Source: Bacillota bacterium (GTDB taxonomy: Bacteria > Bacillota > Clostridia > Christensenellales > Aristaeellaceae). Taken from it: 64,000 nt of DNA. Where the stretch lies: the NCBI GenBank assembly GCA_963169565.1, contig CAUJDI010000045.1, positions 13,277-77,276 of the forward strand. The letters are read 5' to 3'. The position numbers and the translations under genes are program-made. Shown piece after piece: positions 35,462 to 51,067 of this stretch. The first letter of the stretch is position 1; each line of letters begins with the position of its first letter. The notes beneath the pieces are model-generated. The model ran no database searches. It had not been told where the DNA came from and saw nothing but the letters and a program-made list of their open reading frames with translations.

Positions 35462-35490
35462 GCTCAACCCTCCATTCCATTCCTCACGGC

Positions 35491-35499: not shown

Positions 35500-35559
35500 T
35501 ACCAAGCGCCGGCCTTACACCCGCAAGTGCGGCCGGCGCCAAGAGCTTGGCGTATCCTC

Positions 35560-36585: not shown

Positions 36586-36703
36586 ACAGCCTCCCGGCAG
36601 GGATCCTGTCCCTGCCATGATCGCCGGGGCGTTTTCGTGCATCAGGGGAACAGAACAGACCGCCTGACACTCCCGGGGATCCGGTCCGGCGGGCCAATCA
36701 GGC

Positions 36704-37738: not shown

Positions 37739-37986
37739 TCCGCGCACTCCTCCCTCCCTATGGCGATGTCCGGTTTGAGTATAGGACGCAGCCTGATCGA
37801 TGTCAAACCGGTGTCCCGGGACAGAATCGTCCCGGCCGGTCAAGGCTGTTCATGTATGAAAATCTCACCATTTTTTGTATTCTCCGGTGTTCTGTTTTCG
37901 TGTAAAGAGAATATGGAACATGAATCACCTTTCAGTTTTCCGGAGCGCGAAGTGCGTCTGGGTTGAGGGGAACATAGGAGGGCAGA

Positions 37987-39192
37987 ATGGGCAGAGTATT
38001 CATCGCCGCCGCGCGGCGCACGGCCATCGGGTCTTTCATGGGGGCGCTGGGCGGGACCGGCGCGGCGGAGATGGGCGCGCAGGTCGTCAAGGCGGTCCTG
38101 GATGACGCAAAGGTCAGGCCGGAGCAGGTGGACGAGCTGATCTGCGGCAATATCCTCTCCGCCGGTCTGGGCCAGGGCATTGCCCGGCAGATCGCGGTAA
38201 AGGCCGGCATCCCCGTGGAGGTCTGCGCCTACTCCCTGAACATGCTCTGCGGTTCCGGCATGAAGGCCGTGCTCAATGGCATGGCGGAGATCCGCAGCGG
38301 CGTAGCAGACCTGATCGTCGCCGGCGGGGTGGAGTCCATGACCGGTGCGCCTTACCTGCTGCCCAGGGAGATCCGCAAGGGCATCAGGATGGGTTCCTTC
38401 CAGGCGGAGGACCACATGCTCAAGGACGCGCTCACCGACGTGTTTGACAACGTCCACATGGGCATCACGGCGGAGAACGTCGCCGAGCGCCACCACATCA
38501 CCCGCGAGCAGCAGGACGCCTTCGCGTACACCTCCCAGCAGAAGGCCATCAAGGCTGTGGACGAAGGCGTGTTTGACGAGGAGATCGTGCCGCTGACGGT
38601 CAAGGCAGGCCGGGAAGACGTGGTCTTCAGCCGGGACGAGTATCCCAACCGCGGGACGAACCCGGAAAAGCTGGCCAAACTGCGCCCGGCGTTCAGGAAG
38701 GACGGGACGGTGACAGCGGGCAGCTCCTCCGGCATCAACGACGGCGCTTCATTCGTGCTCCTGGCCAGCGAAAAGGCCGTGAAGGAGCTGGGGCTGACGC
38801 CGATGGCGGAGATCCTGGGCGTCGGCCAGGGCGGGGTGGAGCCCTCCCTGATGGGCCTGGGCCCGGTGCCCGCGGTACGAAAAGCGCTTAAGAACGCAGG
38901 GTTGAAACTGCAGGATATGGAACTGATCGAGCTCAACGAAGCCTTCGCGGCGCAGTCCCTGGGCGTACTGAAAGAGTTGAGCGTGGAACATGGGATGAGC
39001 GAGGAGGCCATCATGGAGAGAACAAATCTCTTCGGCGGCGCCATCGCGCTGGGCCACCCTGTAGGCGCATCGGGCAACCGGATCCTGGTGACGCTGCTCC
39101 ACGGGCTCAGGCGCACCGGACGTACGGTCGGCCTGGCCTCCCTGTGCATCGGGGGCGGCATGGGCACCGCGGTCATTGTCAGGCGCGTTTAG
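37987..39192 (+). CDS. acetyl-CoA C-acetyltransferase (thiolase II)
   Basis: 401 aa. NMLCGSG (nucleophile Cys), GHPVGASG, CIGGGMG. RBS AGGAGGG. Confidence 0.93.
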   Translation: MGRVFIAAARRTAIGSFMGALGGTGAAEMGAQVVKAVLDDAKVRPEQVDELICGNILSAGLGQGIARQIAVKAGIPVEVCAYSLNMLCGSGMKAVLNGMAEIRSGVADLIVAGGVESMTGAPYLLPREIRKGIRMGSFQAEDHMLKDALTDVFDNVHMGITAENVAERHHITREQQDAFAYTSQQKAIKAVDEGVFDEEIVPLTVKAGREDVVFSRDEYPNRGTNPEKLAKLRPAFRKDGTVTAGSSSGINDGASFVLLASEKAVKELGLTPMAEILGVGQGGVEPSLMGLGPVPAVRKALKNAGLKLQDMELIELNEAFAAQSLGVLKELSVEHGMSEEAIMERTNLFGGAIALGHPVGASGNRILVTLLHGLRRTGRTVGLASLCIGGGMGTAVIVRRV

Positions 39193-39275
39193 GGAAACAG
39201 GGGACCCTTTCCCCCGATCTCCCCAATGATATACAGATTCAAATATCACAAGAGCAGGAAAAGGAGACAGGAACC

Positions 39276-39995
39276 ATGAGGCTGGAAGGAAAAGTCGCGA
39301 TCGTCACCGGCGCCGCCAAGGGACTTGGCGCGGAAATGGCGCAGCTGTTTGCCAGGGAAGGCGCGAAGGTCATCGCCGCGGACATGGCGGAACCCGTTTA
39401 TCAGGCTGAAAATGTTGAGTACTGCAAGCTCAATGTGACCGACGGCGCGGCCTGTGAAGCGCTGTTCAACTATGCCAGGGATAAATATGGCCGCATCGAC
39501 GTGCTGGTCAACAACGCCGGAATCACCAAGGACGCCATGACCCGCAAGATGACCGATGAGCAGTGGGACGCGGTCATCGCCGTCAACCTCAAGGGCATCT
39601 TCAACCTCACGCGGCATATCGGGCCCTTTATGCAGCAGCAGGGCAGCGGATCCATCATCAGCATTTCCAGCGTCGTGGGCGTGTACGGCAACATCGGCCA
39701 GGCGAATTATGCCGCGACCAAGTCGGCCATCTTCGGCCTGACCAAGACCTGGGCAAAGGAGTTCTCCCTGAAGGGAGCCGCGGTGCGTGTGAACGCCATC
39801 GCCCCGGGTTATACGATGACGGACATCCTCAAGACCGTTCCCCAGGACCTGCTGGACAAGTTCGCCGCGCAGACCATGCTGGGCCGCCTGGGGCAGCCGC
39901 ATGAGATCGCCAGCGCCGCGCTGTTCCTGGCCAGCGATGAAGCCAGCTACATCACAGGGCAGATCCTTCAGGTGGACGGCGGGATGCGCCTGTAA
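39276..39995 (+). CDS. SDR family 3-oxoacyl / acetoacetyl-CoA reductase-like oxidoreductase
   Basis: TGAAKGLG, NNAG, and S...YAATK catalytic motifs, 239 aa. Start at Met45 of the track ORF, after AAGGAGA. Confidence 0.88.
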   Translation: MRLEGKVAIVTGAAKGLGAEMAQLFAREGAKVIAADMAEPVYQAENVEYCKLNVTDGAACEALFNYARDKYGRIDVLVNNAGITKDAMTRKMTDEQWDAVIAVNLKGIFNLTRHIGPFMQQQGSGSIISISSVVGVYGNIGQANYAATKSAIFGLTKTWAKEFSLKGAAVRVNAIAPGYTMTDILKTVPQDLLDKFAAQTMLGRLGQPHEIASAALFLASDEASYITGQILQVDGGMRL

Positions 39996-40030
39996 GGGAA
40001 AGGCTTGATGACAATCCAAGGAGCGCAGAG

Positions 40031-41068
40031 ATGAACAACGACCACGTAGGCATTGCCGGGACCGGGATCTACCTGCCGGAGGGCAGGATGACAGCGCGGG
40101 AGATCGCTGAGGCGACCCTCGGCGTCTGGAGCGAGGCCGCGGTGCGGGATAAGCTGGGCATCAACCGGAAGACGATGCCCCTGGACCCATTGAGGGACGG
40201 CACGCAGGAGATGGGCGCGCTGGCCGCGCTGGACTGCCTGAAGAACACCGGCACAGATCCCGTGGATATCGACGTCGTCCTGTGCATCGGCGAGGAATGG
40301 AAAGAGTATCCCCTCACCACATCGGCGCTGTACATCCAGGACCGCATCGGCGCCGTTAACGCCTGGGGGATCGACGTGCAGAACCGCTGCTGCACCTGCG
40401 TCTCCGCCATGAAGATCGCAAAGGACATGCTGCTGGCGGACCCGGAGGTCAGCACCGTCCTGGTCGTGGGGGGCTACCGCAACGGCGACTTCCTTGACTA
40501 CACCGACAGGAACATGTCCATGATGTACAACCTCGGCGCGGGCGGCGGGGCAATACTGCTCCGGAAAAACCTCGGCAGAAACCTGCTGCTGGGCAGCCAA
40601 ATCCTGTCGGACGGCTCGCTCGCGCGCACGGCCGGCGTTCAGATCGGCGGCACGGCCGAACCTGTCACACACGAGAACCTGGAGGAGGCTCGCACCTCGC
40701 TGCGCCTGTTTGAGCCGGAGAAGATGAAAAACCGGCTCAATGAAGTCTCCGCAAAAAACTGGGTCACCTGCATCGAGAGGTCCCTGGCCAAGTCAAGCCT
40801 GCGGCTTTCAGACCTGGATTACCTGGCCATCCTGCACATCAAACGCTCTGGACATCTGGGCATGCTCAAGGACCTGGGCCTGAGCGAGGAACAGTCCGTC
40901 TACCTGGAGGACTATGGCCACATCGGCCAGATCGACCAGATCCTTTCCCTTCATCTGGCGCTGGAGCAGGGAAAGGTGAAGGACGGCTCAGTCATCTGCA
41001 TGCTGGCGGCCGGCATCGGCTACGTGTGGGCGGCGAACATCATCAAATGGGGGCAGGCAGCTGTATGA
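40031..41068 (+). CDS. KAS III (FabH)-like condensing-enzyme family protein with a non-canonical catalytic triad
   Basis: GTGIYLPE N-terminus and a FabH-like alignment throughout. Cys120 (IDVQNRCC), His269 (AILHIK), and His297 (YGHIGQ) where FabH has the Asn of HGNTSAAS. Confidence 0.75.
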   Translation: MNNDHVGIAGTGIYLPEGRMTAREIAEATLGVWSEAAVRDKLGINRKTMPLDPLRDGTQEMGALAALDCLKNTGTDPVDIDVVLCIGEEWKEYPLTTSALYIQDRIGAVNAWGIDVQNRCCTCVSAMKIAKDMLLADPEVSTVLVVGGYRNGDFLDYTDRNMSMMYNLGAGGGAILLRKNLGRNLLLGSQILSDGSLARTAGVQIGGTAEPVTHENLEEARTSLRLFEPEKMKNRLNEVSAKNWVTCIERSLAKSSLRLSDLDYLAILHIKRSGHLGMLKDLGLSEEQSVYLEDYGHIGQIDQILSLHLALEQGKVKDGSVICMLAAGIGYVWAANIIKWGQAAV

Positions 41069-41982
41069 CACTTCAGTCGTTTCTCCAGTCACTGGTCAAC
41101 GCCCTTCCCCTGATGGGGCGATATGCCCTGGTGACGATGGGCATCGTGCTGATCTTCCGGACGACGGCGACCACGAACTTCGCGCAGGGCCTGATCGGCA
41201 CGTTCGGCGCCTTTGTCGTCACCTGGGCCGCCCTTGAGTGGACTTCGCTGCCGCTGTGGATCGCGATCGTCCTGGGGATGCTCACAGGCTTCATTTTGGG
41301 GGCGGCTGTTGATATCGCGCTGATCCGGATGGCCAAGCGCATCACGCCCGCCGGAAAGCAGATGATCACGATGGGCATCATGATGATACTGGTCAACGTG
41401 GTTCCCAAGATCTTCAGCAGGATCGTCCTGAACAACCTCCCGGGAAAGAGCATCTCGACAAAGAACCTGGAATTCACCCTGTTCGGACAGAGCCTCTATA
41501 TCCCCATCAACGGGGTGTGGGCGTTCATCATTGCGGCGGTCATCCTGACCGCGGTATTCCTTGCTTTGAAGTTCACCAGGTGGGGCCTCGGAGTCCGCGC
41601 AACGGCCGCAAATGAGACCGTGGCACAGATGCTGGGCGTGAACACAAGACTGATCACCGCGTTCTCCTGGGGCCTGGCCGGAGCGCTCAGCGCCCTTGGC
41701 GGCTTCTTTACAGGATTCGGAACGGTGCTGAACGTCAACCTGATGGGAAACGTGCAGGTTTTCGCGTTCCTTGCCTGTGTTCTGGGCGGCTTTGGCAGTT
41801 TCCCCGCGCCGATTCTGGGTTCGGTCATCATTCCCCTCGTCTATGTGTTCGCCGGCAATCCGAACATCATGGGCAAGCAGGCAGGCATCTGGCAGAACCT
41901 CACGACCTTTGTCGTCGTCCTTCTCCTGATTCTGATCTTCCCGAACGGGATCCTTGGCAAAAAGCTCATCAAAAAGGTCTGA
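41065..41982 (+). CDS. LivH-type ABC permease
   Basis: 305 aa polytopic protein with ATTNFAQG (compare NFAHG). ATGA overlap with the KAS III-like gene. Confidence 0.85.
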   Translation: MTLQSFLQSLVNALPLMGRYALVTMGIVLIFRTTATTNFAQGLIGTFGAFVVTWAALEWTSLPLWIAIVLGMLTGFILGAAVDIALIRMAKRITPAGKQMITMGIMMILVNVVPKIFSRIVLNNLPGKSISTKNLEFTLFGQSLYIPINGVWAFIIAAVILTAVFLALKFTRWGLGVRATAANETVAQMLGVNTRLITAFSWGLAGALSALGGFFTGFGTVLNVNLMGNVQVFAFLACVLGGFGSFPAPILGSVIIPLVYVFAGNPNIMGKQAGIWQNLTTFVVVLLLILIFPNGILGKKLIKKV

Positions 41983-41995
41983 GGAGAGGAGCAAG

Positions 41996-44011
41996 ATGAA
42001 AACGCCCGGCAAGAAACGGTCCTTCATGCGCCATCCCTTCGCCGCATTCATCGGGCTTGGGATATTCCTGGCATTGTTTCAGATCATTGCCGTCATCACC
42101 GATGGAGAGTGGCCTAAATCCTTTGTTCTCAACGGCTTCGCGAACGTGATCATGTATGCGATCGTCGGCTACGGGTTTTCGTTCCTGATCGGATACGCAG
42201 GGCTGGCTTCCCTTGGAACAGCGGGCTTTGTCGGTTTCGGAGCATACTTTACCGCCTTCTTCCTGAAACAGGGAATGCCTGATATCCCATATTTTGTCGT
42301 GATCATCAGCGCGCTGACGGTGTCCGTTCTTCTGGGTTTGATCGTCGGCTTTATCTCATTGAGGATCGAAGGCATCTTTCTTGCCATCGTCACCCTCGGT
42401 ATCAGCGAAGTGTTCTACCAGCTGTTCAACAGCTGGATGGACGGTACCGGCGGACCCAACGGCGCGTCCATCAGGGTATATCCGATCTTTCAGAAAGTGT
42501 TCGGCATGAGCACGGGAGACGCCAAAAGCGCCATGTACCTCTTCCTTGTAGCCGCAATGGTCCTCCTGATGCTGCTGACGTACAACCTCGGAAGATCCAG
42601 GACAGGCCGGGCCATGCTGGCCATGAAGAACTCCAGCTCCGCCGCTCAGGCAATGGGGATCTCCCTGCTGAAATACCGTCTGCTGGCGTTTTTGCTGTCC
42701 ACGGCCTATGCCGTGTTCGCGGGCATCCTGTTTATGAGCTACAACCGCACAACACTGCCATACAACTACACCATCATGCTTTCACTGGAAATACTGGCCG
42801 TCGTGCTGATCGGCGGATCGCGGAGCCTGTTGGGCACCTTTATCGGCAGCTTCATCGTGTTCGGTTCCACGCCGATCCTCTTCCAGAACATCAAAGTGCT
42901 CAGTGACAACGCCTGGCTGATCAAGGTCATCATCGGCGCCATCATCATCCTGGTGGTCATGTTCTATCCGGGCGGCCTCGCGCAGCTTGCCGCGTCAGTC
43001 AGGAGCAGGCTGACCGCACGCCTTGGTCTCAGAAAGCCAGCCGGCGACACGCCGCAGGCTGGCTTGCTGGAAACCGCTGTCAGGACCGTCTCCGCAGACC
43101 CGGACAGGACAAAATCCGCAAAACGACGGGAGATCGCCGCGATGCTCAGCACTTCGCCGCCTGAAGCGCATTCACAGCCGATTGACCCGAAGCACGGAGG
43201 GTCCGGGGAATATGTTCTGCGCGTCAGTGACCTGAGCATGGTGTTCGGCGGTTTGAAGGCTGTGGACGGTTTAAGCTTTGATGTGATCAAAGGTGAGATC
43301 TTCGGCCTGATCGGCCCCAACGGAGCCGGAAAGACAACAGTGTTCAACTGCATCACCCAATTCTACAAGCCCACTTCCGGCAAACTGCTCTTCCGCACGG
43401 CGCAGGGCGAGGGCGTCGACCTCAATCATCTCCAGGTGCACAGGGTGATCACCAAAGGCATCGTCAGAACCTTCCAGAACGTGGAAGTGATCGGTGAATT
43501 GACCATCCTGGAAAACCTGCTGATCGCGGCGCACTCCCAGTACCGCAGCTCGCTGCTGGCCCAGGTATTGAATACAAGACACGTGCGCGCCGAAGAGGAA
43601 AAGATCCAGGAGCGCGCGAAGATGATCCTGGACTACTGTGATCTGCTCGCGGTCAAGGATGTCCCGCCGGTGGGACAGCCTTACGGCATCCTCAAGCGGA
43701 TCGAACTGGCCCGAACGCTGATGGCGGGAGCAAGCCTCATCATCCTGGATGAACCCGCCGCCGGGCTGAATGACCAGGAGACGCTTGAGCTGACACATCT
43801 GATCCGGGACATCCAGCGAGACTTCGGTATGACCATCTTCCTGGTCGAGCACAACATGGGTCTGGTGATGGACCTGTGCGACCACATCTGCGCCATTTCC
43901 TTCGGCAGGAAGCTCGCCTACGGAACGCCTGCGGAAATCCAGCGGGACAAGCGGGTTCAGGAAGCCTATCTTGGCACCAACGACACACGCGAACTGGAGG
44001 CCGTACGATGA
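41996..44011 (+). CDS. fused LivM-type permease / LivG-type ATPase
   Basis: A single 671 aa frame. The N-terminal part is a permease (GYAGLASLGTAGFVGFGAY). A ~70 aa Pro/Ser/Arg-rich linker follows. The C-terminal part is an ABC ATPase (GPNGAGKTT, LIILDEPAAGLN). Confidence 0.8.
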   Translation: MKTPGKKRSFMRHPFAAFIGLGIFLALFQIIAVITDGEWPKSFVLNGFANVIMYAIVGYGFSFLIGYAGLASLGTAGFVGFGAYFTAFFLKQGMPDIPYFVVIISALTVSVLLGLIVGFISLRIEGIFLAIVTLGISEVFYQLFNSWMDGTGGPNGASIRVYPIFQKVFGMSTGDAKSAMYLFLVAAMVLLMLLTYNLGRSRTGRAMLAMKNSSSAAQAMGISLLKYRLLAFLLSTAYAVFAGILFMSYNRTTLPYNYTIMLSLEILAVVLIGGSRSLLGTFIGSFIVFGSTPILFQNIKVLSDNAWLIKVIIGAIIILVVMFYPGGLAQLAASVRSRLTARLGLRKPAGDTPQAGLLETAVRTVSADPDRTKSAKRREIAAMLSTSPPEAHSQPIDPKHGGSGEYVLRVSDLSMVFGGLKAVDGLSFDVIKGEIFGLIGPNGAGKTTVFNCITQFYKPTSGKLLFRTAQGEGVDLNHLQVHRVITKGIVRTFQNVEVIGELTILENLLIAAHSQYRSSLLAQVLNTRHVRAEEEKIQERAKMILDYCDLLAVKDVPPVGQPYGILKRIELARTLMAGASLIILDEPAAGLNDQETLELTHLIRDIQRDFGMTIFLVEHNMGLVMDLCDHICAISFGRKLAYGTPAEIQRDKRVQEAYLGTNDTRELEAVR

Positions 44012-44751
44012 GCAGCGTGCTGGAAATAAGGGATCTGGTCGTTTCCTACGGCGCTGTCAAGGCGCTGCAAGGCATAGACCTGGATGTGGAAAAGGGAAGC
44101 ATCGTCGCTATCCTTGGTGCAAACGGCGCCGGCAAGTCAACCCTGCTGCGCACCATCTCCGGCGTGGTCAAGGCGAAATCAGGCAGCATCAAACTGAACC
44201 AGCGGTTTGAATTGCTGGGGATGTTCCCTTATAAGATCGCTGAACAGGGCGTCATCCAGTCGCCTGAAGGTCGTCTCATCCTGCAGGGCCTAACCACAGA
44301 GGAGAACCTCTTTGTCGGCAGCTACGGACTGAAAAGCGAACAGAACAAAAGAAGGAGCGCAAGGGTCCGGGAAAACCTGGACAGGGTTTACGCGCTGTTT
44401 CCGATCCTGTTTGAACGGCGCAGGCAACAGGCCAATACCCTTTCAGGCGGCGAGCAGCAGATGCTGGCCATCGGCAGGGCCCTGATGGCCAGCCCCAGCG
44501 TCCTGCTGCTGGATGAACCTTCCCTGGGCCTGGCGCCACTGATCATCCGGGATATCTTCAAAGTGATCCAACAGCTCAAGCAGGAGGGCAATACCATTCT
44601 GATCGTTGAGCAGAACGCGTTCCAGACGCTGAAGATCGCCGATTACGCGTATGTGCTGGAGCTTGGCCGCATTTCCATGCAGGGCCCGGCCCATGAGCTC
44701 ATCCACAACGAGTCCCTGGTGGAAGCCTATCTGGGCGGGCAGAAAGCCTGA
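44008..44751 (+). CDS. LivF-type ABC ATP-binding protein
   Basis: GANGAGKST, LSGGEQQMLAIGRAL, LLLLDEPSLGL. ATGA overlap with the fusion gene. Confidence 0.9.
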   Translation: MSSVLEIRDLVVSYGAVKALQGIDLDVEKGSIVAILGANGAGKSTLLRTISGVVKAKSGSIKLNQRFELLGMFPYKIAEQGVIQSPEGRLILQGLTTEENLFVGSYGLKSEQNKRRSARVRENLDRVYALFPILFERRRQQANTLSGGEQQMLAIGRALMASPSVLLLDEPSLGLAPLIIRDIFKVIQQLKQEGNTILIVEQNAFQTLKIADYAYVLELGRISMQGPAHELIHNESLVEAYLGGQKA

Positions 44752-44826
44752 ACTCAACTGGGTATTGAGCGCAGAAAAACCTGCGTTTGATAAATAAACT
44801 GAGGATAACCCTCAAGGAGAGACAAC

Positions 44827-46188
44827 ATGAAAAAGATCCTTTCCCTGGCACTGGTCCTTGCCATGCTTCTGTCGATGGCCTCCGTCGCATTGGCCGAAAC
44901 GGGCGTGGACACCACCTCCGTGGAAAAGGGAGGCGTCCAATTCAAGGGCACTGTCAAGATCGGCAACGTCATGGCCGAAACCGGCGCGGTTTCCGCGGTC
45001 GGCATTCCCTATGCCCAATTCTACAAGCTCTTTGTGAAGTACATCAACGAGGTCTGGGGCGGTGTCGCCAAGGACGCTGACGGCGTGGGCTACTACCTGG
45101 ACCACAAGACCTATGACGATGGTTTCAACGGCCAGGCCGGCCAGAACTTCATCAACCAGCTGATCAATGACGACAAGGTGTTCTCCATGGTCGGCAACCT
45201 GGGAACGTGGAACCTGATCGCTTCCCAGAATGACATCGTGGAGAGCGGCGTTCCTTCTGTGTACTGGGGCACCGGCGCGGATGCCCAGCGCTATGACAAG
45301 GCTGAGGGCAATGAACGCTTCACCTTCCCCGTACAGCCGGTTTACGGCAATGAAGGCCGCATCATGCTGCTGCGCGCCCTGAACATGCCCAAGATCCCTG
45401 ATTCAGGCGTAGAATCCGTCAAGAAGATCGGCGTGATCTACTCCGCGGACGACTCCGGCACCAACATCTACAAGGGCGCTGAAGCCCAGTATAACCTCCT
45501 GGAAGGCGAAAAACCCGAGATCGTCTATCAGATGGCCAATACGGCTTCCACGGATGAACTGGCAACCGCGGTGGCGGCGCTTGAGGGCTGTGACGTGGTG
45601 ATCATCGGCGGCCTTCAGTCCGTGTATCCCCCGATCTACACAGCCATGCAGCAGAATCCCAAGACCCGCGGCATCCCGGTCATCGTTTCCTACGTGAACG
45701 TCGCCCTGGCATACGTTCCTGTTGATTATGCCAACGAACCCGACGCGAGTGACATTTACGGCGGAGCCTGGGTCATTATCGATCCGGCCGCCCAGACGGA
45801 ACAGCAGAAAGCCGAACTGGCCGAGTTCACTTCCATCGTCAACTGGGGCCTTGAGAAAGGGTACATTCCCAAGGAGATGGCAGACGTACTCCTCGGTGCC
45901 GGCGCCGCTTACGCCATGAGCTCCTACATCGCCCTGAAAGTCTTCATGACAGGCCTTGACCGCATCGCGGCGGCCGGCAAGGAAATCACCCGTGAGGCCT
46001 TGCTGGAGGCGATGGAGTCCGAGCCGATCCATGTCCCGATCTCCAGCAGCGTTGACTACTCCAACGGCGCCCGTGTGGGCCTGGCCGGCATCGCGTTCGC
46101 GAAGTATGACAAGAACTATACCAACATCAACGCAGCGTTCGTCACGGTGGACAACCTCCGCTCCATTGAAGAGCTGCTGGGCAAGTAA
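44827..46188 (+). CDS. ABC substrate-binding protein, type 1 PBP (Liv-like) family, ligand unknown
   Basis: Signal peptide MKKILSLALVLAMLLSMASVALA, 453 aa. RBS AAGGAGAG. Confidence 0.8.
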   Translation: MKKILSLALVLAMLLSMASVALAETGVDTTSVEKGGVQFKGTVKIGNVMAETGAVSAVGIPYAQFYKLFVKYINEVWGGVAKDADGVGYYLDHKTYDDGFNGQAGQNFINQLINDDKVFSMVGNLGTWNLIASQNDIVESGVPSVYWGTGADAQRYDKAEGNERFTFPVQPVYGNEGRIMLLRALNMPKIPDSGVESVKKIGVIYSADDSGTNIYKGAEAQYNLLEGEKPEIVYQMANTASTDELATAVAALEGCDVVIIGGLQSVYPPIYTAMQQNPKTRGIPVIVSYVNVALAYVPVDYANEPDASDIYGGAWVIIDPAAQTEQQKAELAEFTSIVNWGLEKGYIPKEMADVLLGAGAAYAMSSYIALKVFMTGLDRIAAAGKEITREALLEAMESEPIHVPISSSVDYSNGARVGLAGIAFAKYDKNYTNINAAFVTVDNLRSIEELLGK

Positions 46189-46335
46189 GAGCCCCTGCTC
46201 AGCAACAGAAGGCGCACGTTCCCGGGGAGGGGTCTCCAGCGGATCCCTCCCCCCTTCCATCCTCAGCTTGTGTCAGGCACCGGCCGCACGAGGCCTGCCC
46301 GGCAGGTCAGATGATTAAGTCAAAGGGGAAACGCC

Positions 46336-47652
46336 ATGAATTATCAAGACAAGCTCATCACTGTCCAACAGGCGGTCGACCTTGTGAAGTCCAACGATTA
46401 CATCGTCACAGGCCTGGGCTGTTCCACAGCGGACGCGTTTTTCAACCACCTGCACACGGCTGCCGGCAGGCTTAAGGACGTTCTGATCTCCACCTGCCTG
46501 CCGATGCGGGACTACCCCTGCTTCAACGACCCCGTATACAAGGACAGCTTCCTGCATGACAGCTGGTTCTACAGTGCCGCCACCCGCAAGGCACACAAGA
46601 CAGGGAGTACGTCCTTTGTGCCCAACTGCCTCCACTTCGCTGCACACAAGCGCCTGGCGCACCGCAGACCCAACATTTACGTCGGCGCGGCTTCCATGCC
46701 GGACAGGCACGGCTACATCTCGCTGTCCTGTTCCAACACCTACGAAACGCACATGATCGAGGCGGCGGACATCACGATCCTGGAGATCAACCCGAATTAC
46801 CCGCGCACCTTCGGTGACGTCAACATCCATTACTCCCGGATTGACCACCTCATCCTGACAGAGTATGATCCTCCCGCGCTGCCGGATGTTCCGCCAAGCG
46901 TCAAGGACCGCGTCATCGGCGGATTGATCGCCCCCTACATCCATGACGGCGACTGCATCCAGCTGGGCATCGGCGTAATGCCCAACGCACTGGCAGAAGC
47001 CCTGATGGACAAGAAGGATCTGGGCATCCACACAGAGATGCTGACAACCAACATGATGAAACTGTACATGGCCGGCGCTGTCACCGGGCGCAGAAAGCAG
47101 ATCCAGAAGGGGAAAATGGTATGCACTTTCATCATGGGTTCCAAGGAACTGTATGAGTTCGCACATGACAACCCCGGGGTTGAAGTGATGGCGGGCAGCT
47201 ACGTCAATGACCCCTATGTCATCGCTCAGAACGACAACATGGTCTCCATCAACTCCACCATGGAGGTGGATCTGACGGGCCAGTGTGCCAGCGAATCATT
47301 GGGCTCGGTCCAGTTTTCCGGCACCGGGGGGCAGGCAGACACAGCCGTGGGCGCGCAGAACTCAAAGAACGGCCGCTCCTTCATCTGCCTGTATTCCACC
47401 GCCATGGTCAAAAACCCCCAGACCGGCGAGCGTGAGGAAGTCAGCAAGATCGTACCCCAGCTTAAACCGGGCGCCGCGGTCACCCTCTCGCGCAATGACG
47501 TCGACTATATCGTGACAGAATACGGCGTCGCCTGGCTGCGGGGCACCAGCATCCGGGAGCGCGTGGACCTGCTCATCGGCATCGCGCACCCGAAGTTCCG
47601 CGATGAACTGCGCCGCCAGGCGCTGGATATCGGGATCATCAGCCAGCGATGA
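46336..47652 (+). CDS. acetyl-CoA hydrolase/transferase family (4-hydroxybutyrate / butyryl-CoA:acetate CoA-transferase type)
   Basis: 438 aa. GIHTEML catalytic-Glu region and SGTGGQAD motif. Confidence 0.85.
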   Translation: MNYQDKLITVQQAVDLVKSNDYIVTGLGCSTADAFFNHLHTAAGRLKDVLISTCLPMRDYPCFNDPVYKDSFLHDSWFYSAATRKAHKTGSTSFVPNCLHFAAHKRLAHRRPNIYVGAASMPDRHGYISLSCSNTYETHMIEAADITILEINPNYPRTFGDVNIHYSRIDHLILTEYDPPALPDVPPSVKDRVIGGLIAPYIHDGDCIQLGIGVMPNALAEALMDKKDLGIHTEMLTTNMMKLYMAGAVTGRRKQIQKGKMVCTFIMGSKELYEFAHDNPGVEVMAGSYVNDPYVIAQNDNMVSINSTMEVDLTGQCASESLGSVQFSGTGGQADTAVGAQNSKNGRSFICLYSTAMVKNPQTGEREEVSKIVPQLKPGAAVTLSRNDVDYIVTEYGVAWLRGTSIRERVDLLIGIAHPKFRDELRRQALDIGIISQR

Positions 47653-48467
47653 GCAGCTTTGTTTTCAGGGGGAAAAGCGTTCATTACGAGCTCGTTGGCG
47701 AGGGCCGTCCCCTCCTGCTGCTCAACGGGATCATGATGTCCACCAGGTCATGGGCGCCCTTCCTGGAGGCCTTCCAAGCGGGCGGGAACAGGCTGATCCT
47801 GGTCGACCTGCTGGACCAGGGCGAGAGCGCTGCCATGGACGGGCCATTTGAGCAGCGCCTTCAGGCGGAGATGCTCAGGGAGCTGATGGATCATCTGCAG
47901 ATCCCGTCCACAGCGGTGTTCGGCACCAGCTACGGCGGCGAAGTCGCGCTGAACCTGGCGGTCGATTACCCGGAAAAAGTCAGCAGAATGGTCCTGGCCA
48001 ACACAGTGGCGAGAACCAGCGCCTGGCTCAAGGAGATCGGGGAAGCCTGGAACCTCGCCTCAAAGGATCCGATGGCCTATTACTCCACCACCATTCCCGT
48101 CATCTACAGCCCGGATTTCTATGACCGGCGGGCGGAGTGGATGGCCAAACGAAAGGAACTGCTGACGAAGACCGCCTTCGCCGACCCGGATTTTCTCGCG
48201 CGCATGGTCCGGCTGACGCGTTCGGCTGAGAGCCACGACGTACGGGAGCGCCTGGGCAGGATCGCTTGTCCGGTGCTCATCATCTCCTCTGACCAGGACC
48301 ACATCACCCCTTTGGAGGAGCAGGTCTTCCTCCGCGAAAACATCAGGGGCGCCGAACACGTGCTTCTGCCCAGAACAGGCCACGCCGCCTTTTATGAGCG
48401 GCCCGATCTCTTCGTCAGCGTCATGATGGGCTTCATCAACCACAGGGAGTCGATCCGCCTGCCCTGA
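47649..48467 (+). CDS. alpha/beta hydrolase
   Basis: 272 aa. Nucleophile elbow GTSYGG, then SSDQDHIT and TGHAAF. ATGA overlap with the CoA-transferase gene. Confidence 0.85.
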   Translation: MSSFVFRGKSVHYELVGEGRPLLLLNGIMMSTRSWAPFLEAFQAGGNRLILVDLLDQGESAAMDGPFEQRLQAEMLRELMDHLQIPSTAVFGTSYGGEVALNLAVDYPEKVSRMVLANTVARTSAWLKEIGEAWNLASKDPMAYYSTTIPVIYSPDFYDRRAEWMAKRKELLTKTAFADPDFLARMVRLTRSAESHDVRERLGRIACPVLIISSDQDHITPLEEQVFLRENIRGAEHVLLPRTGHAAFYERPDLFVSVMMGFINHRESIRLP

Positions 48468-48500
48468 GGGAGGCCAAAACAGCACCGAAAGGAACCTCTG

Positions 48501-49130
48501 ATGAACGAGCCAAAAACCACCCGGGGACAGAAGACGTTGAACCGCATCATCAAGGCGGCTGAAAACGAGTTCGGGAAGAAGGGCTATTACAACACCACCA
48601 TCAACGACCTCGCCGCGCGCGCCAAGGTCGCCCCCGGCACGATCTACATCTATTTCTCCGACAAATATTCCCTATACTGCCACCTGCTCAACCGCTACGG
48701 ACATGAGATCCGGAAGAAGATCGCAGAGGATACCGCGGGATGCGCCACAAGGCTGGACGCCGAACGGGCGGGCCTGCTGTCCTTTCTCAGGCAGGTGAAA
48801 AAACAGCCTTACATGTACCAGATCATCTGGGAATCCCTGTACATCAACCCCACGCTATTCGTTGAATACTATGAATCATTTGCCCTGCGCTACAAGACAA
48901 AACTGGACGAGTCGGCAGGGGAGATCACCCGGATGGACAACACCGTGCTGGCTTATATACTCATGGGCATCGTCAATTTCATCGGGCTGAAATATGTCTT
49001 TTTTGACAAGGGTGCGGATCTGGAAAAGGTGGCCGATCAGGCGATGGCATTTTACCGCTACGGCCTTTCCGGTTTGGGTCAGCCGGCCGAAGGCCCGGCC
49101 GGGGAGCAGCCGGGCGGCTCCGCTTGCTGA
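48501..49130 (+). CDS. TetR/AcrR family transcriptional regulator
   Basis: 209 aa. N-terminal HTH GYYNTTINDLAARAKVAPGTIYIYF. Confidence 0.9.
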   Translation: MNEPKTTRGQKTLNRIIKAAENEFGKKGYYNTTINDLAARAKVAPGTIYIYFSDKYSLYCHLLNRYGHEIRKKIAEDTAGCATRLDAERAGLLSFLRQVKKQPYMYQIIWESLYINPTLFVEYYESFALRYKTKLDESAGEITRMDNTVLAYILMGIVNFIGLKYVFFDKGADLEKVADQAMAFYRYGLSGLGQPAEGPAGEQPGGSAC

Positions 49131-49260
49131 TTTTCCGACCGAAGCAGGCGGCGCAAGGGGAATAATATGGTCAAAATCCCCTGAAAATCCTGCATTCTTT
49201 ACTTGCCAGGCACGCTATGATATACTTCCAGCGGAATTCCTCAGGAGGTTTTTTCGGCTG

Positions 49261-50556: not shown

Positions 50557-51067
50557 GCTGCTGGGCCTTCAGCCGGGAGCGGACGAGACCTCTGTCCGCG
50601 CGGCTTACCATCAATTGGTCAAAACCTGCCATCCGGACAGCTTTTCGGACCCGGAAATGCAGAAAGCCGGACAGGAAAGGCTGATCAGCATCAACCTTGC
50701 CTATGAGCAGGCGATGAAGATCGTCGAATCAAGGCAGACCGCCTCCGCCTCCCTTCCTTGCGAACAAGCCAAGAACTGGGCAAAGAAGCTGCTGGAGCGC
50801 AGGCAGTACGAACTGGCGCTGCTTCAGCTGAGCAAGGCGGAGAGCAAGGACGCCGAGTGGTTTGCCCTGCAGGGGGAGACGCTCACAGGTCTGAAGCAGT
50901 ACCTGAGCGCCTACCAGGCCTGGCGGACAGCGGCGCGCACGGACCCCTCCTGCCTGGCGTACCGGCGGGGGGCGCTAGAGGCTGAGATGAAGCTGAAGAA
51001 GATGGGGTCCTTCACACAGAAGACCTTAAGCCAGGTGAAAGCGCTCTTTCAGCGGAAAGACAGCTGA
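50540..51067 (+). CDS. J-domain (DnaJ-like) protein with TPR-like C-terminus
   Basis: FELLGL...AYHQLVKTCHPD (HPD motif). Start at Met42 of the track ORF; overlaps the murA end by 17 nt. Confidence 0.7.
   Translation: MQSAFELLGLQPGADETSVRAAYHQLVKTCHPDSFSDPEMQKAGQERLISINLAYEQAMKIVESRQTASASLPCEQAKNWAKKLLERRQYELALLQLSKAESKDAEWFALQGETLTGLKQYLSAYQAWRTAARTDPSCLAYRRGALEAEMKLKKMGSFTQKTLSQVKALFQRKDS

What the first reader, a model, noticed from the sequence alone, without database searches (positions are those of the whole stretch)
37987..49130. Ten-gene co-directional cluster joining a Liv-type ABC importer to thiolase, SDR, atypical KAS III, CoA-transferase and hydrolase, closed by a TetR gene
**What the sequence shows**
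- All ten genes are on the + strand. Three junctions are ATGA-type overlaps (41065/41068, 44008/44011, 47649/47652), and the largest gap is 147 nt. This fits one or two transcripts.

**What follows from family knowledge**
- The enzyme set is neither a full beta-oxidation set (no acyl-CoA dehydrogenase or enoyl-CoA hydratase), nor fatty-acid synthesis (no ACP, FabD or FabZ).
- It is also not PHA synthesis (no PhaC) and not olefin synthesis (no OleC-type ligase).

**Inference**
- The simplest reading is import of a carboxylate, possibly a 3-hydroxy or 3-oxo acid or an ester or oligomer of one.
- The hydrolase would release the acid, the CoA-transferase would activate it, the SDR would oxidise the 3-hydroxyacyl-CoA, and the thiolase would cleave it.
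- That leaves the Cys-His-His KAS III-like enzyme without a role.
- Liv-family binding proteins are known to bind non-amino-acid carboxylates in some bacteria, so an amino-acid substrate should not be assumed.
- I do not recognise this gene combination as a characterised pathway.
Basis: partly seen in the sequence, partly recalled or inferred. Interest (0 to 1): 0.72.

Follow-up and report, generated by a model that had tools for sequence, protein, structure and literature searches.

The report
Conserved short-chain hydroxyacid uptake operon
This is a real operon, conserved in hundreds of anaerobic species, that pairs an ABC importer with enzymes for short-chain acyl-CoA metabolism; it most likely scavenges 3-hydroxybutyrate-type compounds, and it contains a condensing-enzyme-like protein whose job is unknown.

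Summary
Ten + strand genes lie at the stated coordinates, with three 4-nt overlaps and a largest gap of 147 nt. All family calls hold, including the Cys-His-His KAS III-like protein.

The cluster is larger than reported. A divergent second alpha/beta hydrolase (36704-37738, - strand) is part of the conserved set. In relatives MaoC dehydratase, acyl-CoA dehydrogenase, EtfBA and acetate kinase join it.

The set is syntenic in about 80 species-level genomes examined, out of 338 relatives of the KAS III-like protein: Christensenellales, Acholeplasma, Izemoplasmatales and Erysipelotrichaceae. More distant versions occur in Spirochaetota, Chloroflexota and Desulfobacterales.

Two components tie it to (R)-3-hydroxybutyryl chemistry:
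- The Acholeplasma laidlawii orthologue of the SDR is 100% identical to PDB 4NBT, an NADH-type "FabG".
- The second hydrolase's orthologues pass NCBI's cut-off for intracellular short-chain PHA depolymerase. The window's own copy does not.

Best reading (about 0.4): TetR-controlled import and catabolism of (R)-3-hydroxyalkanoates or their esters to acetyl-CoA. The KAS III-like enzyme stays unassigned, yet it is the gene most faithfully linked to the transporter, the CoA-activating enzyme and the SDR.

Main rival (about 0.25): a CoA-based, FAS-like elongation of an imported acid.

I found no published description in ten searches.

The parts
36704..37738 (-). Hyd2: second alpha/beta hydrolase (344 aa from the ATG at 37738, GWSLG serine motif), transcribed divergently from the thiolase gene. 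It is a diverged PhaZ-type esterase.
   Evidence: Pfam Abhydrolase_1/6. Best NCBIfam match is NF050089, intracellular scl-PHA depolymerase, at 109 bits against a cut-off of 300, N-terminal half only. Best PDB match is 8YNV, poly(3HB) depolymerase. Start codon and ribosome-binding site GGGAGGGAGGA. The family is present in 39-40 related loci. 39% identity to A. laidlawii Hyd2 over the core.
37917..37934 (.). Candidate TetR operator, AACATGAATCACCTTTCA (imperfect ATGAA-N6-TTCAT inverted repeat), about 55-70 nt upstream of the thiolase ATG in the 248-nt divergent intergenic region.
   Evidence: The motif recurs at the same position in L003, L004, L016, L017, L020 and L023. In L022 it is the perfect palindrome TGAATCATGATTCA. 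Sequence read. Function is inferred, not tested.
37987..39192 (+). Thiolase II (acetyl-CoA C-acetyltransferase type), 401 aa
   Evidence: Thiolase_N and Thiolase_C. TIGR01930 scores 457 bits against a cut-off of 240, and the PhaA, BktB and PcaF equivalogs all fall below cut-off. The sequence shows the catalytic motifs LNMLCGSG, NEAFA, GHPVGASG and LCIGGGMG. 56-80% identity in related loci.
39276..39995 (+). Classical SDR, 239 aa: NAD(H)-type (R)-3-oxoacyl/3-hydroxyacyl-CoA oxidoreductase
   Evidence: adh_short_C2. The FabG equivalog NF004198 scores 276 bits against a cut-off of 296. Best PDB match is 4NBT at 362 bits, then 2ET6, a (3R)-hydroxyacyl-CoA dehydrogenase. The A. laidlawii cluster orthologue is 100% identical to 4NBT. 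An Asp in 'VIAADM' at the end of beta-2 suggests NAD(H) preference (sequence plus family knowledge).
40031..41068 (+). KAS III-like (FabH-fold) protein with a Cys120-His269-His297 triad, 345 aa. It is the most conserved gene of the cluster and its role is unknown.
   Evidence: NF005308 (PRK06840) scores 460 bits against a cut-off of 315, while fabH TIGR00747 scores only 90 against 292. Invariant residues. AF2 model pLDDT 84; the Foldseek top hits are FabH structures at 18-23% identity. 70-91% identity across 80 loci.
41065..41982 (+). LivH-type ABC permease, 305 aa
   Evidence: BPD_transp_2. UrtB scores 77 bits and LivH 61 bits, both far below cut-off. 4-nt overlap with the KAS III-like gene.
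41996..44011 (+). Fused LivM-type permease and LivG-type ATPase, 671 aa
   Evidence: BPD_transp_2 (residues 44-321), ABC_tran (424-588) and BCA_ABC_TP_C. The two are fused in the window and L008, and the tblastn pattern suggests the same in L001 and L007. They are separate genes in most other loci.
44008..44751 (+). LivF-type ABC ATPase, 247 aa
   Evidence: ABC_tran. LivF equivalog scores 237 bits against a cut-off of 441.
44827..46188 (+). Very divergent cluster-B (Liv-type) substrate-binding protein, 453 aa, with a signal peptide
   Evidence: Peripla_BP_6 at only 58 bits, no NCBIfam match and no PDB sequence match. AF2 pLDDT 92.6. The Foldseek top hit is 4N03, a fatty-acid ABC binding protein, at 14% identity. 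LivJ alpha-amino contacts are not kept.
46336..47652 (+). Family I CoA-transferase of the 4-hydroxybutyrate / butyryl-CoA:acetate type, 438 aa
   Evidence: AcetylCoA_hyd_C at 205 bits. TIGR03948 scores 297 bits against a cut-off of 675. PDB 3EH7, 3GK7 and 9VAG, all 4-hydroxybutyrate CoA-transferases, score 286-306 bits.
47649..48467 (+). Hyd1: cytoplasmic alpha/beta serine hydrolase (GTSYG), 272 aa
   Evidence: Abhydrolase_1/6. PcaD scores 107 bits against a cut-off of 256. PDB 4Q3L, the metagenomic esterase MGS-M2, scores 248 bits. Replaced by a Cys-only KAS III-like protein in L062 and L078.
48501..49130 (+). TetR-family regulator, 209 aa
   Evidence: TetR_N at 55 bits. Weak matches to Bacillus FadR, FasR, PsrA and KstR, the acyl-CoA-sensing types. 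Present in 50 loci, either at the 3' end or divergent at the 5' end.

Best explanation
The cluster is a TetR-repressed module for uptake and catabolism of a short-chain (R)-3-hydroxyalkanoate. The most likely substrate is (R)-3-hydroxybutyrate, together with its small ester oligomers released from polyhydroxybutyrate.

**Proposed route:**
1. The Liv-type ABC system, with its own divergent binding protein, imports the compound.
2. Two cytoplasmic serine esterases (Hyd1, MGS-M2-like; Hyd2, PhaZ-like) split ester bonds.
3. The CoA-transferase moves CoA from acetyl-CoA, or butyryl-CoA, onto the free acid.
4. The NAD-linked SDR oxidises (R)-3-hydroxyacyl-CoA to 3-oxoacyl-CoA.
5. The thiolase cleaves this to acetyl-CoA, which yields ATP through acetate kinase.

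In related genomes an attached MaoC dehydratase plus Bcd/EtfAB reduces part of the 3-hydroxyacyl-CoA to butyryl-CoA as the electron sink.

**Shown:**
- the gene families and the synteny
- the identity of the A. laidlawii SDR orthologue with PDB 4NBT
- PhaZ-equivalog scores for the Hyd2 orthologues

**Inferred:**
- the substrate
- the direction of flux
- the role of each enzyme
- the operator

**Unassigned:** the Cys-His-His KAS III-like enzyme. It presumably acts on the CoA ester of the imported acid, by C-C cleavage or formation or by ester-to-thioester acyl transfer.
For: **Conservation**
- The whole set is conserved across about 80 species genomes. The transporter and enzyme blocks are rearranged in some lineages but always adjacent.

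**SDR**
- The best PDB match is 4NBT, and the A. laidlawii cluster gene is 100% identical to it. The organism of 4NBT is confirmed in PMC5264612.
- From my memory of Javidpour et al. 2014 (paper not held), 4NBT is an NADH-dependent acetoacetyl-CoA reductase.
- The second-best fully characterised match is 2ET6, a (3R)-hydroxyacyl-CoA dehydrogenase.

**Hydrolases**
- Hyd2 orthologues in A. laidlawii, A. granularum, P. vituli, L036, L049 and L080 score 315-343 bits. The cut-off of NF050089, intracellular scl-PHA depolymerase, is 300.
- The window's Hyd2 and Hyd1 both have this family, or PDB 8YNV, among their matches.
- Hyd1 is close to a solved carboxylesterase, 4Q3L.
- Neither hydrolase has a signal peptide (sequence).

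**Other enzymes**
- The CoA-transferase resembles 4-hydroxybutyrate and butyryl-CoA:acetate transferases.
- Relatives carry MaoC ((R)-hydratase type), a Bcd/AcrC-like dehydrogenase and EtfBA next to the cluster in 10-14 loci, and acetate kinase in 7.

**Transporter**
- The binding protein keeps a Ser/Thr at the LivJ carboxylate contact but loses the alpha-amino contacts.
- A second, more canonical Liv system sits elsewhere in the window.
Against: - The window's own Hyd2 fails the PhaZ equivalog cut-off (109 bits against 300) and has a different C-terminal half.
- No role follows for the KAS III-like enzyme. Yet it is the most conserved gene, at 70-91% identity, and the only enzyme kept in all distant versions.
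- Several distant versions lack the thiolase: L084, L085, L086 and L088.
- Cluster-B binding proteins usually take small ligands, and uptake of 3HB or its oligomers by a Liv-type system has no precedent that I could find.
- The closest structural neighbour of the binding protein is a fatty-acid binder.
- The enzyme types (KAS III, FabG-like, hot-dog dehydratase) are those of synthesis, not classical beta-oxidation.
- There are no expression, binding or growth data.
Confidence: 0.4

Rival explanations
1. CoA-based, FAS-like elongation or primer feeding. An imported short carboxylic acid is activated to its CoA ester. The KAS III-like enzyme condenses it with a malonyl (or acetyl) thioester. The SDR acts as ketoreductase, MaoC as dehydratase and Bcd/Etf as enoyl reductase. 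The product is released by CoA transfer or by the hydrolases, or is handed to fatty-acid synthesis.
For: - The invariant core in distant lineages is transporter + CoA-activating enzyme + KAS III-like + SDR, without a thiolase: L084 Thermoflexus, L085 Rectinema, L086 and L088.
- Gene orders there are ligase-KAS3-SDR and ligase-KAS3-MaoC.
- Cys-His-His is the triad of the decarboxylating KAS I/II enzymes (family knowledge).
- The stereochemistry is FAS-like (R).
- The top structural neighbour of the binding protein is a fatty-acid binding protein.
- The TetR weakly resembles FadR and FasR.
Against: - No ACP gene occurs in any of 89 loci.
- No malonyl transferase or acetyl-CoA carboxylase showed up among the recurrent gene families.
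- The SDR has an NAD(H)-type cofactor motif (sequence reading plus family knowledge; its orthologue 4NBT is NADH-dependent by my memory of Javidpour 2014).
- FabH residues W32 and R249, which contact CoA and ACP, are not kept.
- A PhaZ-type depolymerase, a second esterase, a fermentative CoA-transferase, a thiolase and acetate kinase fit catabolism better.
- A costly ABC importer for diffusible short acids is hard to justify (inference).
Confidence: 0.25
2. Catabolism of another beta-oxo, beta-hydroxy or lactone substrate. Examples are 3-hydroxy-5-oxohexanoate or triacetate from phloroglucinol-type phenolics, or a 3-oxoadipate-enol-lactone-like compound. The hydrolases would open a lactone or a beta-diketone, and the KAS III-like enzyme would carry out a retro-Claisen step before the thiolase.
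For: - The best named family for Hyd1 is 3-oxoadipate enol-lactonase: 107 bits here, 126-166 bits in the Rectinema and Thermoflexus copies. C-C hydrolases such as BphD and HsaD also match.
- CoA-transferase + dehydrogenase + thiolase is the classical triacetate route described for Pelobacter (my knowledge of Brune and Schink 1992).
- Liv-type binding proteins for aromatic acids are among the structural neighbours.
- This reading gives the KAS III-like enzyme a role, and it explains the versions that lack a thiolase.
Against: - All lactonase and C-C hydrolase scores are far below their cut-offs.
- There is only one reductase.
- No phloroglucinol reductase or cyclohydrolase signature was seen.
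- Hyd2 orthologues meet the PHA-depolymerase equivalog instead.
- Retro-Claisen activity of a FabH-fold enzyme is unproven.
Confidence: 0.1
3. A PhaC-independent storage cycle. The KAS III-like enzyme, acting as an O-acyltransferase, builds oligo- or poly-3-hydroxybutyrate from 3HB-CoA. Hyd2 (PhaZ-like) and Hyd1 mobilise it again. Thiolase, SDR and MaoC play the roles of PhaA, PhaB and PhaJ.
For: - Functional analogues of PhaA, PhaB, PhaJ and PhaZ are all present in the extended cluster.
- Some KAS III-like enzymes, such as CerJ, form esters from acyl-CoA (family knowledge; CerJ is among the PDB matches).
- In L062, L078 and L085 a second, Cys-only KAS III-like protein sits beside the CoA-transferase.
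- This reading gives every gene a role.
Against: - To my knowledge, no PHB granules have been reported in Acholeplasma or Christensenellales.
- It does not explain why an importer is the most constant partner of the KAS III-like gene.
- No phasin or PhaR genes were seen.
- Purely speculative chemistry for this family.
Confidence: 0.07
4. Two unrelated units that are merely adjacent: an ordinary branched-chain amino-acid importer next to an acetoacetyl-CoA or butyrate fermentation operon.
For: - The permease and ATPase genes are annotated as Liv-type by Pfam.
- The 75-nt and 147-nt gaps flank the binding-protein gene, and the 147-nt gap holds a hairpin.
Against: - Adjacency survives rearrangement in about 80 Bacillota loci. 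It recurs in Spirochaetota, Chloroflexota, Desulfobacterales and other distant contigs.
- The KAS III-like gene overlaps the permease gene by 4 nt.
- The binding protein is highly atypical and lacks the alpha-amino contacts.
- A second Liv system exists in the same window.
Confidence: 0.04

Closest known systems
PHB mobilisation and (R)-3-hydroxybutyrate catabolism (Bacillus PhaZ-type depolymerase with PhaA/PhaB/PhaJ-type enzymes)
   Same: - Thiolase.
- An (R)-specific 3-oxoacyl-CoA oxidoreductase.
- In relatives, a MaoC (R)-hydratase.
- An esterase family whose Mollicute and Erysipelotrichaceae members pass the NF050089 equivalog cut-off.
   Different: - No PhaC, phasin or PhaR.
- An ABC importer is integral to the cluster.
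- Activation is by a family I CoA-transferase, not by 3HB dehydrogenase plus acetoacetyl-CoA synthetase.
- There is an extra KAS III-like enzyme and a second esterase.
- The window's own Hyd2 fails the equivalog cut-off.
E. coli atoDAEB (acetoacetate and short-chain acid utilisation)
   Same: The logic is the same: transporter + acetyl-CoA-dependent CoA-transferase + thiolase, giving acetyl-CoA.
   Different: - The CoA-transferase is the single-chain 4-hydroxybutyrate type, not AtoDA (TIGR02428 scores only 19 bits).
- The transporter is ABC, not AtoE.
- The regulator is TetR, not AtoSC.
- SDR, KAS III-like protein and esterases are additional.
Clostridial acetyl-CoA to butyrate pathway (Thl-Hbd-Crt-Bcd/EtfAB-But)
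   Same: In 10-14 related loci the cluster carries thiolase, a Bcd-like dehydrogenase, EtfBA and a But-like CoA-transferase.
   Different: - It uses (R)-specific FabG-like and MaoC enzymes in place of Hbd and crotonase.
- It is joined to an importer, esterases and a KAS III-like enzyme.
- The Bcd/Etf part is absent from this window.
FabH (KAS III) and its CoA-using relatives (NphT7, BioZ, PA3286, OleA)
   Same: - FabH fold, with TM 0.78-0.86 to FabH structures.
- The catalytic Cys and first His are kept.
- It is genetically coupled to an acyl-CoA-forming enzyme, as BioZ is to a CoA-transferase.
   Different: - His replaces the Asn of the Cys-His-Asn triad.
- It has a family-specific invariant loop, EEWKEYPLTT.
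- It has a 12-residue insertion.
- Identity to any solved member is only 18-23%.
- No ACP gene lies nearby.
OleABCD / beta-lactone synthesis sets
   Same: The protein families co-occur: a KAS III-like condensing enzyme, an SDR, alpha/beta hydrolases and, in Thermoflexus, AMP-ligases.
   Different: - The hydrolases use a GxSxG serine, not the OleB aspartate.
- The SDR is a classical 240-aa type, not the extended OleD type.
- There is no ligase in this window.
- An importer, a thiolase and a CoA-transferase point to catabolism.
Liv-type organic-acid uptake systems coupled to CoA activation (e.g. Rhodopseudomonas palustris CouP; fatty-acid binding protein 4N03)
   Same: A cluster-B binding protein and a LivHMGF-like transporter sit next to CoA-activating and beta-oxidation-type genes. 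These proteins are the structural neighbours of the binding protein.
   Different: - Identity is only 12-20%.
- The ligand is unknown.
- The binding protein is about 70 residues longer.

Membership tests
NF005308 / PRK06840 '3-oxoacyl-ACP synthase' (uncharacterised FabH-like family) | Whole-protein score at or above the curated cut-off of 315 bits | tested here: met
   460.7 bits over residues 3-342
FabH / KAS III (TIGR00747) | Cys-His-Asn catalytic triad | tested here: not met
   C120 and H269 are kept. FabH Asn274 is His297, invariant in 73 close and 9 distant members.
FabH / KAS III (TIGR00747) | Score at or above the curated cut-off of 292 bits | tested here: not met
   90.5 bits
FabH / KAS III (TIGR00747) | Thiolase-like FabH fold | tested here: met
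   AF2 model pLDDT 84. The Foldseek top 20 are FabH structures, with E as low as 4e-27 and TM 0.75-0.86.
FabH / KAS III (TIGR00747) | Condenses acyl-CoA with malonyl-ACP | not testable with these tools
   No ACP gene in 89 loci. FabH W32 and R249 are not kept. An enzyme assay is needed.
Intracellular scl-PHA depolymerase (NF050089, Bacillus PhaZ type) | Score at or above the equivalog cut-off of 300 bits, end to end | tested here: not met
   The window's Hyd2 scores 109 bits on the N-terminal 120 residues only, and Hyd1 scores 66 bits. Orthologous Hyd2 proteins of six other loci score 315-343 bits.
Intracellular scl-PHA depolymerase (NF050089, Bacillus PhaZ type) | Serine nucleophile in a GxSxG box | tested here: met
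   GWSLG in Hyd2 and GTSYG in Hyd1
Thiolase II (TIGR01930 acetyl-CoA C-acyltransferase) | Score at or above 240.55 bits, with Cys/His/Cys catalytic motifs | tested here: met
   457 bits. The motifs are visible in the sequence. The PhaA, BktB and PcaF equivalog cut-offs are not reached.
FabG, NADPH-dependent 3-oxoacyl-ACP reductase (NF004198 / TIGR01830) | Equivalog cut-off of 296-298 bits | tested here: not met
   276 and 259 bits. The closest solved relative is the A. laidlawii protein 4NBT, identical to that organism's cluster orthologue. I recall 4NBT as NADH-dependent, from a paper that is not held.
Butyryl-CoA:acetate CoA-transferase (TIGR03948) | Equivalog cut-off of 674.8 bits | tested here: not met
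   297.5 bits. It scores 286-306 bits against solved 4-hydroxybutyrate CoA-transferases.
Leu/Ile/Val-binding protein (LivJ/LivK type) | Contacts to the alpha-amino and alpha-carboxylate groups (LivJ S79, T102, Y202, E226) | tested here: inconclusive
   S79 aligns with T127 and is kept. T102 aligns with G150, Y202 with L263 and E226 with V287. The alignment is at about 14% identity and used a LivJ sequence recalled from memory. There is no NCBIfam match and Pfam gives only 58 bits.
3-oxoadipate enol-lactonase PcaD (TIGR02427) | Equivalog cut-off of 255.85 bits | tested here: not met
   Hyd1 scores 106.9 bits and Hyd2 55 bits.
OleABCD olefin / beta-lactone system | OleC-type AMP ligase and an OleB hydrolase with an Asp nucleophile | tested here: not met
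   There is no AMP-binding gene in the window cluster, and both hydrolases have a Ser nucleophile. AMP ligases do occur in the Thermoflexus version.

The most novel reading that the evidence does not exclude
The Cys-His-His KAS III-like protein is a new kind of acyl-transfer enzyme in 3-hydroxyalkanoate metabolism. It either cleaves imported 3HB ester oligomers with CoA, saving the ester bond as a thioester, or builds oligo- or poly-3HB without a PhaC synthase. Either way, Mollicutes, Christensenellales and relatives would have a previously unrecognised PHB-type carbon economy.
Probability: 0.1. Interest if true: 0.85.

Novelty: new variant of a known kind. Interest (0 to 1): 0.6.

Why it matters
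**How widespread it is.** The cluster is present in at least several hundred species-level genomes of anaerobes from gut, rumen, digesters and sediments. These include small-genome Mollicutes, which keep few catabolic operons. None of the ten literature searches found a description of it.

**What the best reading would mean.** It would identify how these fermenters scavenge 3-hydroxybutyrate-type carbon, for example PHB from dead cells or the host ketone body. It would also correct two current labels: "branched-chain amino acid transporter", and "FabG/FabH of fatty-acid synthesis" for this SDR and KAS III-like gene.

**The KAS III-like family.** It is an orphan enzyme family with an unusual triad, and it is always coupled to uptake and CoA activation of an acid. 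Solving its reaction would add a new function to the thiolase superfamily.

**Why it is testable.**
- A. laidlawii carries the cluster and has genetic tools (PMC10805103).
- Solved structures already exist for its SDR (4NBT) and for a metagenomic homologue of Hyd1 (4Q3L).

Tried and rejected
**Considered and rejected**
- **Canonical FabH of fatty-acid synthesis.** Rejected: below cut-off, His in place of Asn, and no ACP nearby.
- **HMG-CoA synthase-like enzyme.** Only weak N-terminal matches (45 bits), and no HMGS among the top 50 structural hits.
- **Ole or beta-lactone system.** Rejected for this window: no ligase, and serine hydrolases.
- **Biotin (BioZ/BioH) route.** BioH matches are weak (54-93 bits), and no bioF/A/D/B genes appeared in any locus.
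- **Beta-ketoadipate pathway.** All scores are far below cut-off.

**Led nowhere**
- **Literature.** Ten searches found no description of the cluster: Acholeplasma and Izemoplasma metabolism, annotation-string combinations, MGS-M2 and 4Q3L, anaerobic PHB degradation, and oligomer hydrolase with ABC uptake.
- **Papers not held.** Three key papers are not in the library: Javidpour 2014, Alcaide 2015 and Tseng 2006.
- **RNA elements.** The Rfam scan of 35000-51000 found nothing.
- **Promoter and terminator scan.** It gave nothing above shuffled expectation for terminators.
- **Binding-protein fold search.** It gave only generic Liv-type neighbours at 12-20% identity, so the ligand cannot be read from it.
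- **Look-up of P0212.** It failed because the gene is not on record.

Full report
**1. Observation**

ORF listing and translation, together with a junction check, confirm ten + strand genes:

| Gene | Coordinates |
|---|---|
| Thiolase | 37987-39192 |
| SDR | 39276-39995 |
| KAS III-like | 40031-41068 |
| LivH-like | 41065-41982 |
| Fused LivM+LivG | 41996-44011 |
| LivF | 44008-44751 |
| Binding protein | 44827-46188 |
| CoA-transferase | 46336-47652 |
| Alpha/beta hydrolase (Hyd1) | 47649-48467 |
| TetR | 48501-49130 |

- The gaps between successive genes are 83, 35, -4, 13, -4, 75, 147, -4 and 33 nt.
- Pfam and NCBIfam confirm each family.
HMMER alignment to FabH structures and a 73-sequence family alignment put C120 at the FabH cysteine, H269 at His244 and H297 at Asn274, all invariant.

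**2. Organism and conservation**

- The KAS III-like protein has 338 relatives among GTDB species genomes. The 80 best (70-91% identity) are Christensenellales, Acholeplasma and Acholeplasmataceae, Izemoplasmatales, Erysipelotrichaceae and unclassified Bacilli or Bacillota MAGs.
- L001, an uncultured Christensenella MAG, carries eight of the ten proteins (KAS III-like to TetR; the contig starts inside the cluster) at 88-99% identity. The window is therefore from Christensenellales.
- tblastn of the ten proteins shows the whole set in essentially every locus that is long enough.
- Unbiased ORF clustering gives each gene in 27 to 35 of the 36 loci with full flanks.
- The transporter block sits between KAS III and the CoA-transferase in most loci. 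It lies upstream in Acholeplasma, and downstream in L026, L046, L040 and L044. It is always adjacent.
- Identity to the window proteins across these loci falls in the order KAS III-like (70-91%), SDR (66-93%), thiolase (56-80%), CoA-transferase (52-88%), Hyd1 (42-94%). The binding protein falls furthest, to 28-41% outside Christensenellales.

**3.

The clustering revealed further conserved members:
- **A second alpha/beta hydrolase, Hyd2, in 40 loci.** In the window it is the divergent upstream gene at 36704-37738 (ATG with a strong ribosome-binding site).
- **MaoC-type dehydratase, a Bcd/AcrC-like acyl-CoA dehydrogenase, and EtfB and EtfA** in 10-14 loci. These often lie between TetR and the thiolase, giving 16-gene co-directional clusters (for example L049, L059, L074 and L080).
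- **Acetate kinase** at the edge in 7 loci, including A. laidlawii.

**4. Links to known biochemistry**

- **SDR.** The best PDB match is 4NBT (362 bits), followed by a (3R)-hydroxyacyl-CoA dehydrogenase.
  - 4NBT is from A. laidlawii (PMC5264612).
  - The SDR gene inside the A. laidlawii copy of this cluster is 100% identical to 4NBT.
  - From memory, 4NBT was described as an NADH-dependent "FabG" assayed on acetoacetyl-CoA (Javidpour et al. 2014; the paper is not held).
- **Hyd2.** Orthologues in A. laidlawii, A. granularum, Paracholeplasma vituli, L036, L049 and L080 score 315-343 bits end to end. This is against NF050089, intracellular short-chain-length PHA depolymerase, whose cut-off is 300.
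  - That family is the Bacillus PhaZ type (PMC4908106, citing Tseng 2006).
  - The window's Hyd2 shares only the N-terminal core: 39% identity and 109 bits. It is related to that family but is not a member.
- **Hyd1.** It is close to the solved metagenomic esterase 4Q3L, at 248 bits.
- **CoA-transferase.** It resembles 4-hydroxybutyrate CoA-transferases.
- **Location.** Neither hydrolase has a signal peptide, so any ester is split in the cytoplasm.

**5. The transporter**

- The binding protein is very atypical: Pfam gives 58 bits, and there is no NCBIfam or PDB sequence match.
- A confident AF2 model (pLDDT 92.6) has a fatty-acid binding protein (4N03) as its top neighbour. Next come Liv-type proteins binding amino acids, aromatic acids, urea or amides, all at 12-20% identity.
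- In an alignment with LivJ (sequence recalled from memory, so weak), the Ser/Thr that holds the carboxylate is kept. T102, Y202 and E226, which hold the alpha-amino group, are not.
- The window carries a second, more canonical Liv system at 9918-15165. The cluster's system is therefore a specialised paralogue.

**6. The KAS III-like enzyme is the centre, not a leftover**

- An exhaustive search of 50%-identity representatives finds 106 with E below 1e-30.
- Contexts of distant members (27-52% identity) were read, as tabulated below.

| Locus (organism) | Gene order |
|---|---|
| L084 (Thermoflexus) | TetR, hydrolase, AMP ligase, SDR, hydrolase, AMP ligase, KAS III-like, MaoC, binding protein, LivGFHM |
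| L085 (Rectinema) | KAS III-like, SDR, binding protein, LivHMGF, two hydrolases; divergently TetR, a second KAS III-like and a CoA-transferase |
| L086 | ACAD, MaoC, KAS III-like, LivHMGF, AMP ligase, binding protein, TetR |
| L088 | sodium:solute symporter, AMP ligase, KAS III-like (overlapping the ligase), SDR |
| L083 (Desulfobacterales) | AMP-binding, enoyl-CoA hydratase, LivGFHM, KAS III-like |

- L087 (52% identity) shows TetR, thiolase, SDR and KAS III-like; its downstream genes carry no Pfam record. L089 is a 2.4-kb contig and is uninformative.
- None of the five tabulated loci has a thiolase.
- The recurrent core is therefore an importer, a CoA-activating enzyme and the KAS III-like enzyme. 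An SDR joins it in three of these five distant loci and a TetR in four.
- The family signature "YGH" (His in place of the FabH Asn) holds in all nine aligned family members. The first His is kept in seven of the nine, and the Cys in all but Thermoflexus, which has Ser. An acidic residue followed by Tyr (E92-Y93) is constant.
- The AF2 model is FabH-like.
- No ACP gene is present in any of the 89 loci.
- In L062 and L078 Hyd1 is replaced by a second KAS III-like protein. That protein keeps only the Cys.

**7. Mechanism**

The best-supported reading (about 0.4) is a TetR-controlled catabolic module for (R)-3-hydroxyalkanoates, most simply (R)-3-hydroxybutyrate and its oligomeric esters. The steps would be:
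1. Import.
2. Ester hydrolysis by Hyd1 and Hyd2.
3. CoA transfer.
4. NAD-linked oxidation.
5. Thiolysis to acetyl-CoA.

In relatives a MaoC/Bcd/Etf branch to butyryl-CoA would act as electron sink, and acetate kinase would give ATP.

The gene families, the synteny, the 4NBT identity and the PhaZ-equivalog scores are shown. The substrate, the direction of flux and the individual roles are inferred.

The weak points are these:
- The KAS III-like enzyme has no assigned role.
- Distant versions lack the thiolase.
- The window's Hyd2 is not a PhaZ member.
- No Liv-type 3HB uptake system is known to me.

The main rival (about 0.25) reads the same genes in the synthetic direction:
1. The imported acid is converted to its acyl-CoA.
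2. The KAS III-like enzyme carries out a decarboxylative condensation.
3. The SDR acts as ketoreductase.
4. MaoC acts as dehydratase.
5. Bcd/Etf acts as enoyl reductase.

This explains the invariant core and the FAS-like enzyme types. It does not explain the depolymerase-type esterases, the fermentative CoA-transferase, the acetate kinase, the apparent NAD(H) preference of the SDR or the absence of ACP.

Lesser rivals are:
- catabolism of another beta-oxo or lactone substrate (0.1);
- a PhaC-independent storage cycle (0.07);
- coincidental adjacency (0.04).

**8. Regulation**

- The 248-nt divergent region between Hyd2 and the thiolase gene holds AACATGAATCACCTTTCA (37917-37934). This motif recurs at the same place in seven related loci, once as a perfect palindrome. 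It is a plausible TetR operator, untested.
- No Rfam element was found.
- The 147-nt gap after the binding-protein gene contains a G+C-rich hairpin without a T tract. This may tune the ratio of binding protein to enzymes.

**9. Comparison and novelty**

- The cluster works like a combination of an ato-type uptake/CoA-transferase/thiolase system and PHB-mobilisation enzymes. In relatives an (R)-specific butyrate branch is added.
- It is not a member of any of the named equivalog families tested, except the uncharacterised PRK06840 family and the generic thiolase family (see the membership table).
- Ten literature searches found no description of the cluster. This does not prove that none exists.
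- I rate it a new variant of a known kind, with an orphan enzyme family at its centre. Interest is 0.6.

Noticed in passing
window 41996-44011: LivM-type permease and LivG-type ATPase are fused into one 671-aa ORF, joined by a low-complexity linker of about 70 residues. The fusion is also called in L008, and the tblastn pattern suggests it in L001 and L007. Most other loci have two genes, often with an unusually long LivG ORF of about 475-525 aa in my crude calls.
   Followed up: partly
window 44827-44900: The binding protein's signal peptide ends in 'VALA/ETG' and has no lipobox cysteine. The consensus of its homologues has 'AC' at that position, as lipoproteins do. In A. laidlawii the orthologue is 583 aa with an N-terminal Big_3 domain.
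   Followed up: no
window 35560-36738 (- strand): A PTS_EIIC_2 family membrane protein lies next to Hyd2. The same gene sits next to, or within a few kb of, Hyd2 in five Christensenellales loci (L003, L004, L006, L008, L016) at 71-77% identity. It may be a lineage-specific extra member of the cluster.
   Followed up: partly
window 9918-15165 (+ strand): A second complete Liv-type ABC system (binding protein, LivH, LivM, LivG, LivF). Its binding protein matches Peripla_BP_6 much better (124 bits) and aligns to LivJ at 24% identity. It is probably the real amino-acid importer. Only the binding protein and LivM were scanned against Pfam.
   Followed up: partly
L062:18529-19503, L078:11801-12787, L085:6429-7436: A second, distant KAS III-like protein (25-27% identity) keeps the Cys but has Thr in place of the first His and Tyr in place of Asn/His. 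It lies beside the CoA-transferase in L062 and L085 and takes the place of Hyd1 in L062 and L078. It passes the generic 'beta-ketoacyl-ACP synthase 3' subfamily cut-off despite lacking the condensing residues.
   Followed up: partly
window 37848-37862: A second conserved box, GTTCATGTATGAAAA, is seen as (C/T)ATAATGTATAAAA or ATGATGTATAAAA in relatives. It lies upstream of the operator-like motif, in the Hyd2-thiolase intergenic region. It may be a promoter element or a second operator.
   Followed up: no
window 46224-46252: A G+C-rich hairpin (GGGGAGGGG...CCCTCCCC), not followed by a T tract, lies in the 147-nt gap between the binding-protein gene and the CoA-transferase gene. It may be a processing or attenuation site.
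   Followed up: no
L032, L037, L043, L050, L051, L055, L056, L058, L061, L068, L070, L073, L076 (upstream of TetR): In 13 loci, mostly Izemoplasmatales-type, two tandem large proteins with apparent GGDEF/EAL features lie immediately upstream of the divergent TetR gene. The features were judged from the sequences only; no Pfam scan was run.
   Followed up: no
window 4599-7244, 18063-27321: The window is rich in glycolytic genes: pyruvate phosphate dikinase, a CggR-like regulator, phosphoglycerate kinase, iPGM, two phosphofructokinases and class II FBP aldolase. This is consistent with a sugar-fermenting organism.
   Followed up: no
L084 (Thermoflexus hugenholtzii CP076326.1): In this distant version the catalytic Cys of the KAS III-like protein is replaced by Ser (EICGTSAG), and two AMP-dependent ligases replace the CoA-transferase. 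Both hydrolases are present, but there is no thiolase.
   Followed up: partly
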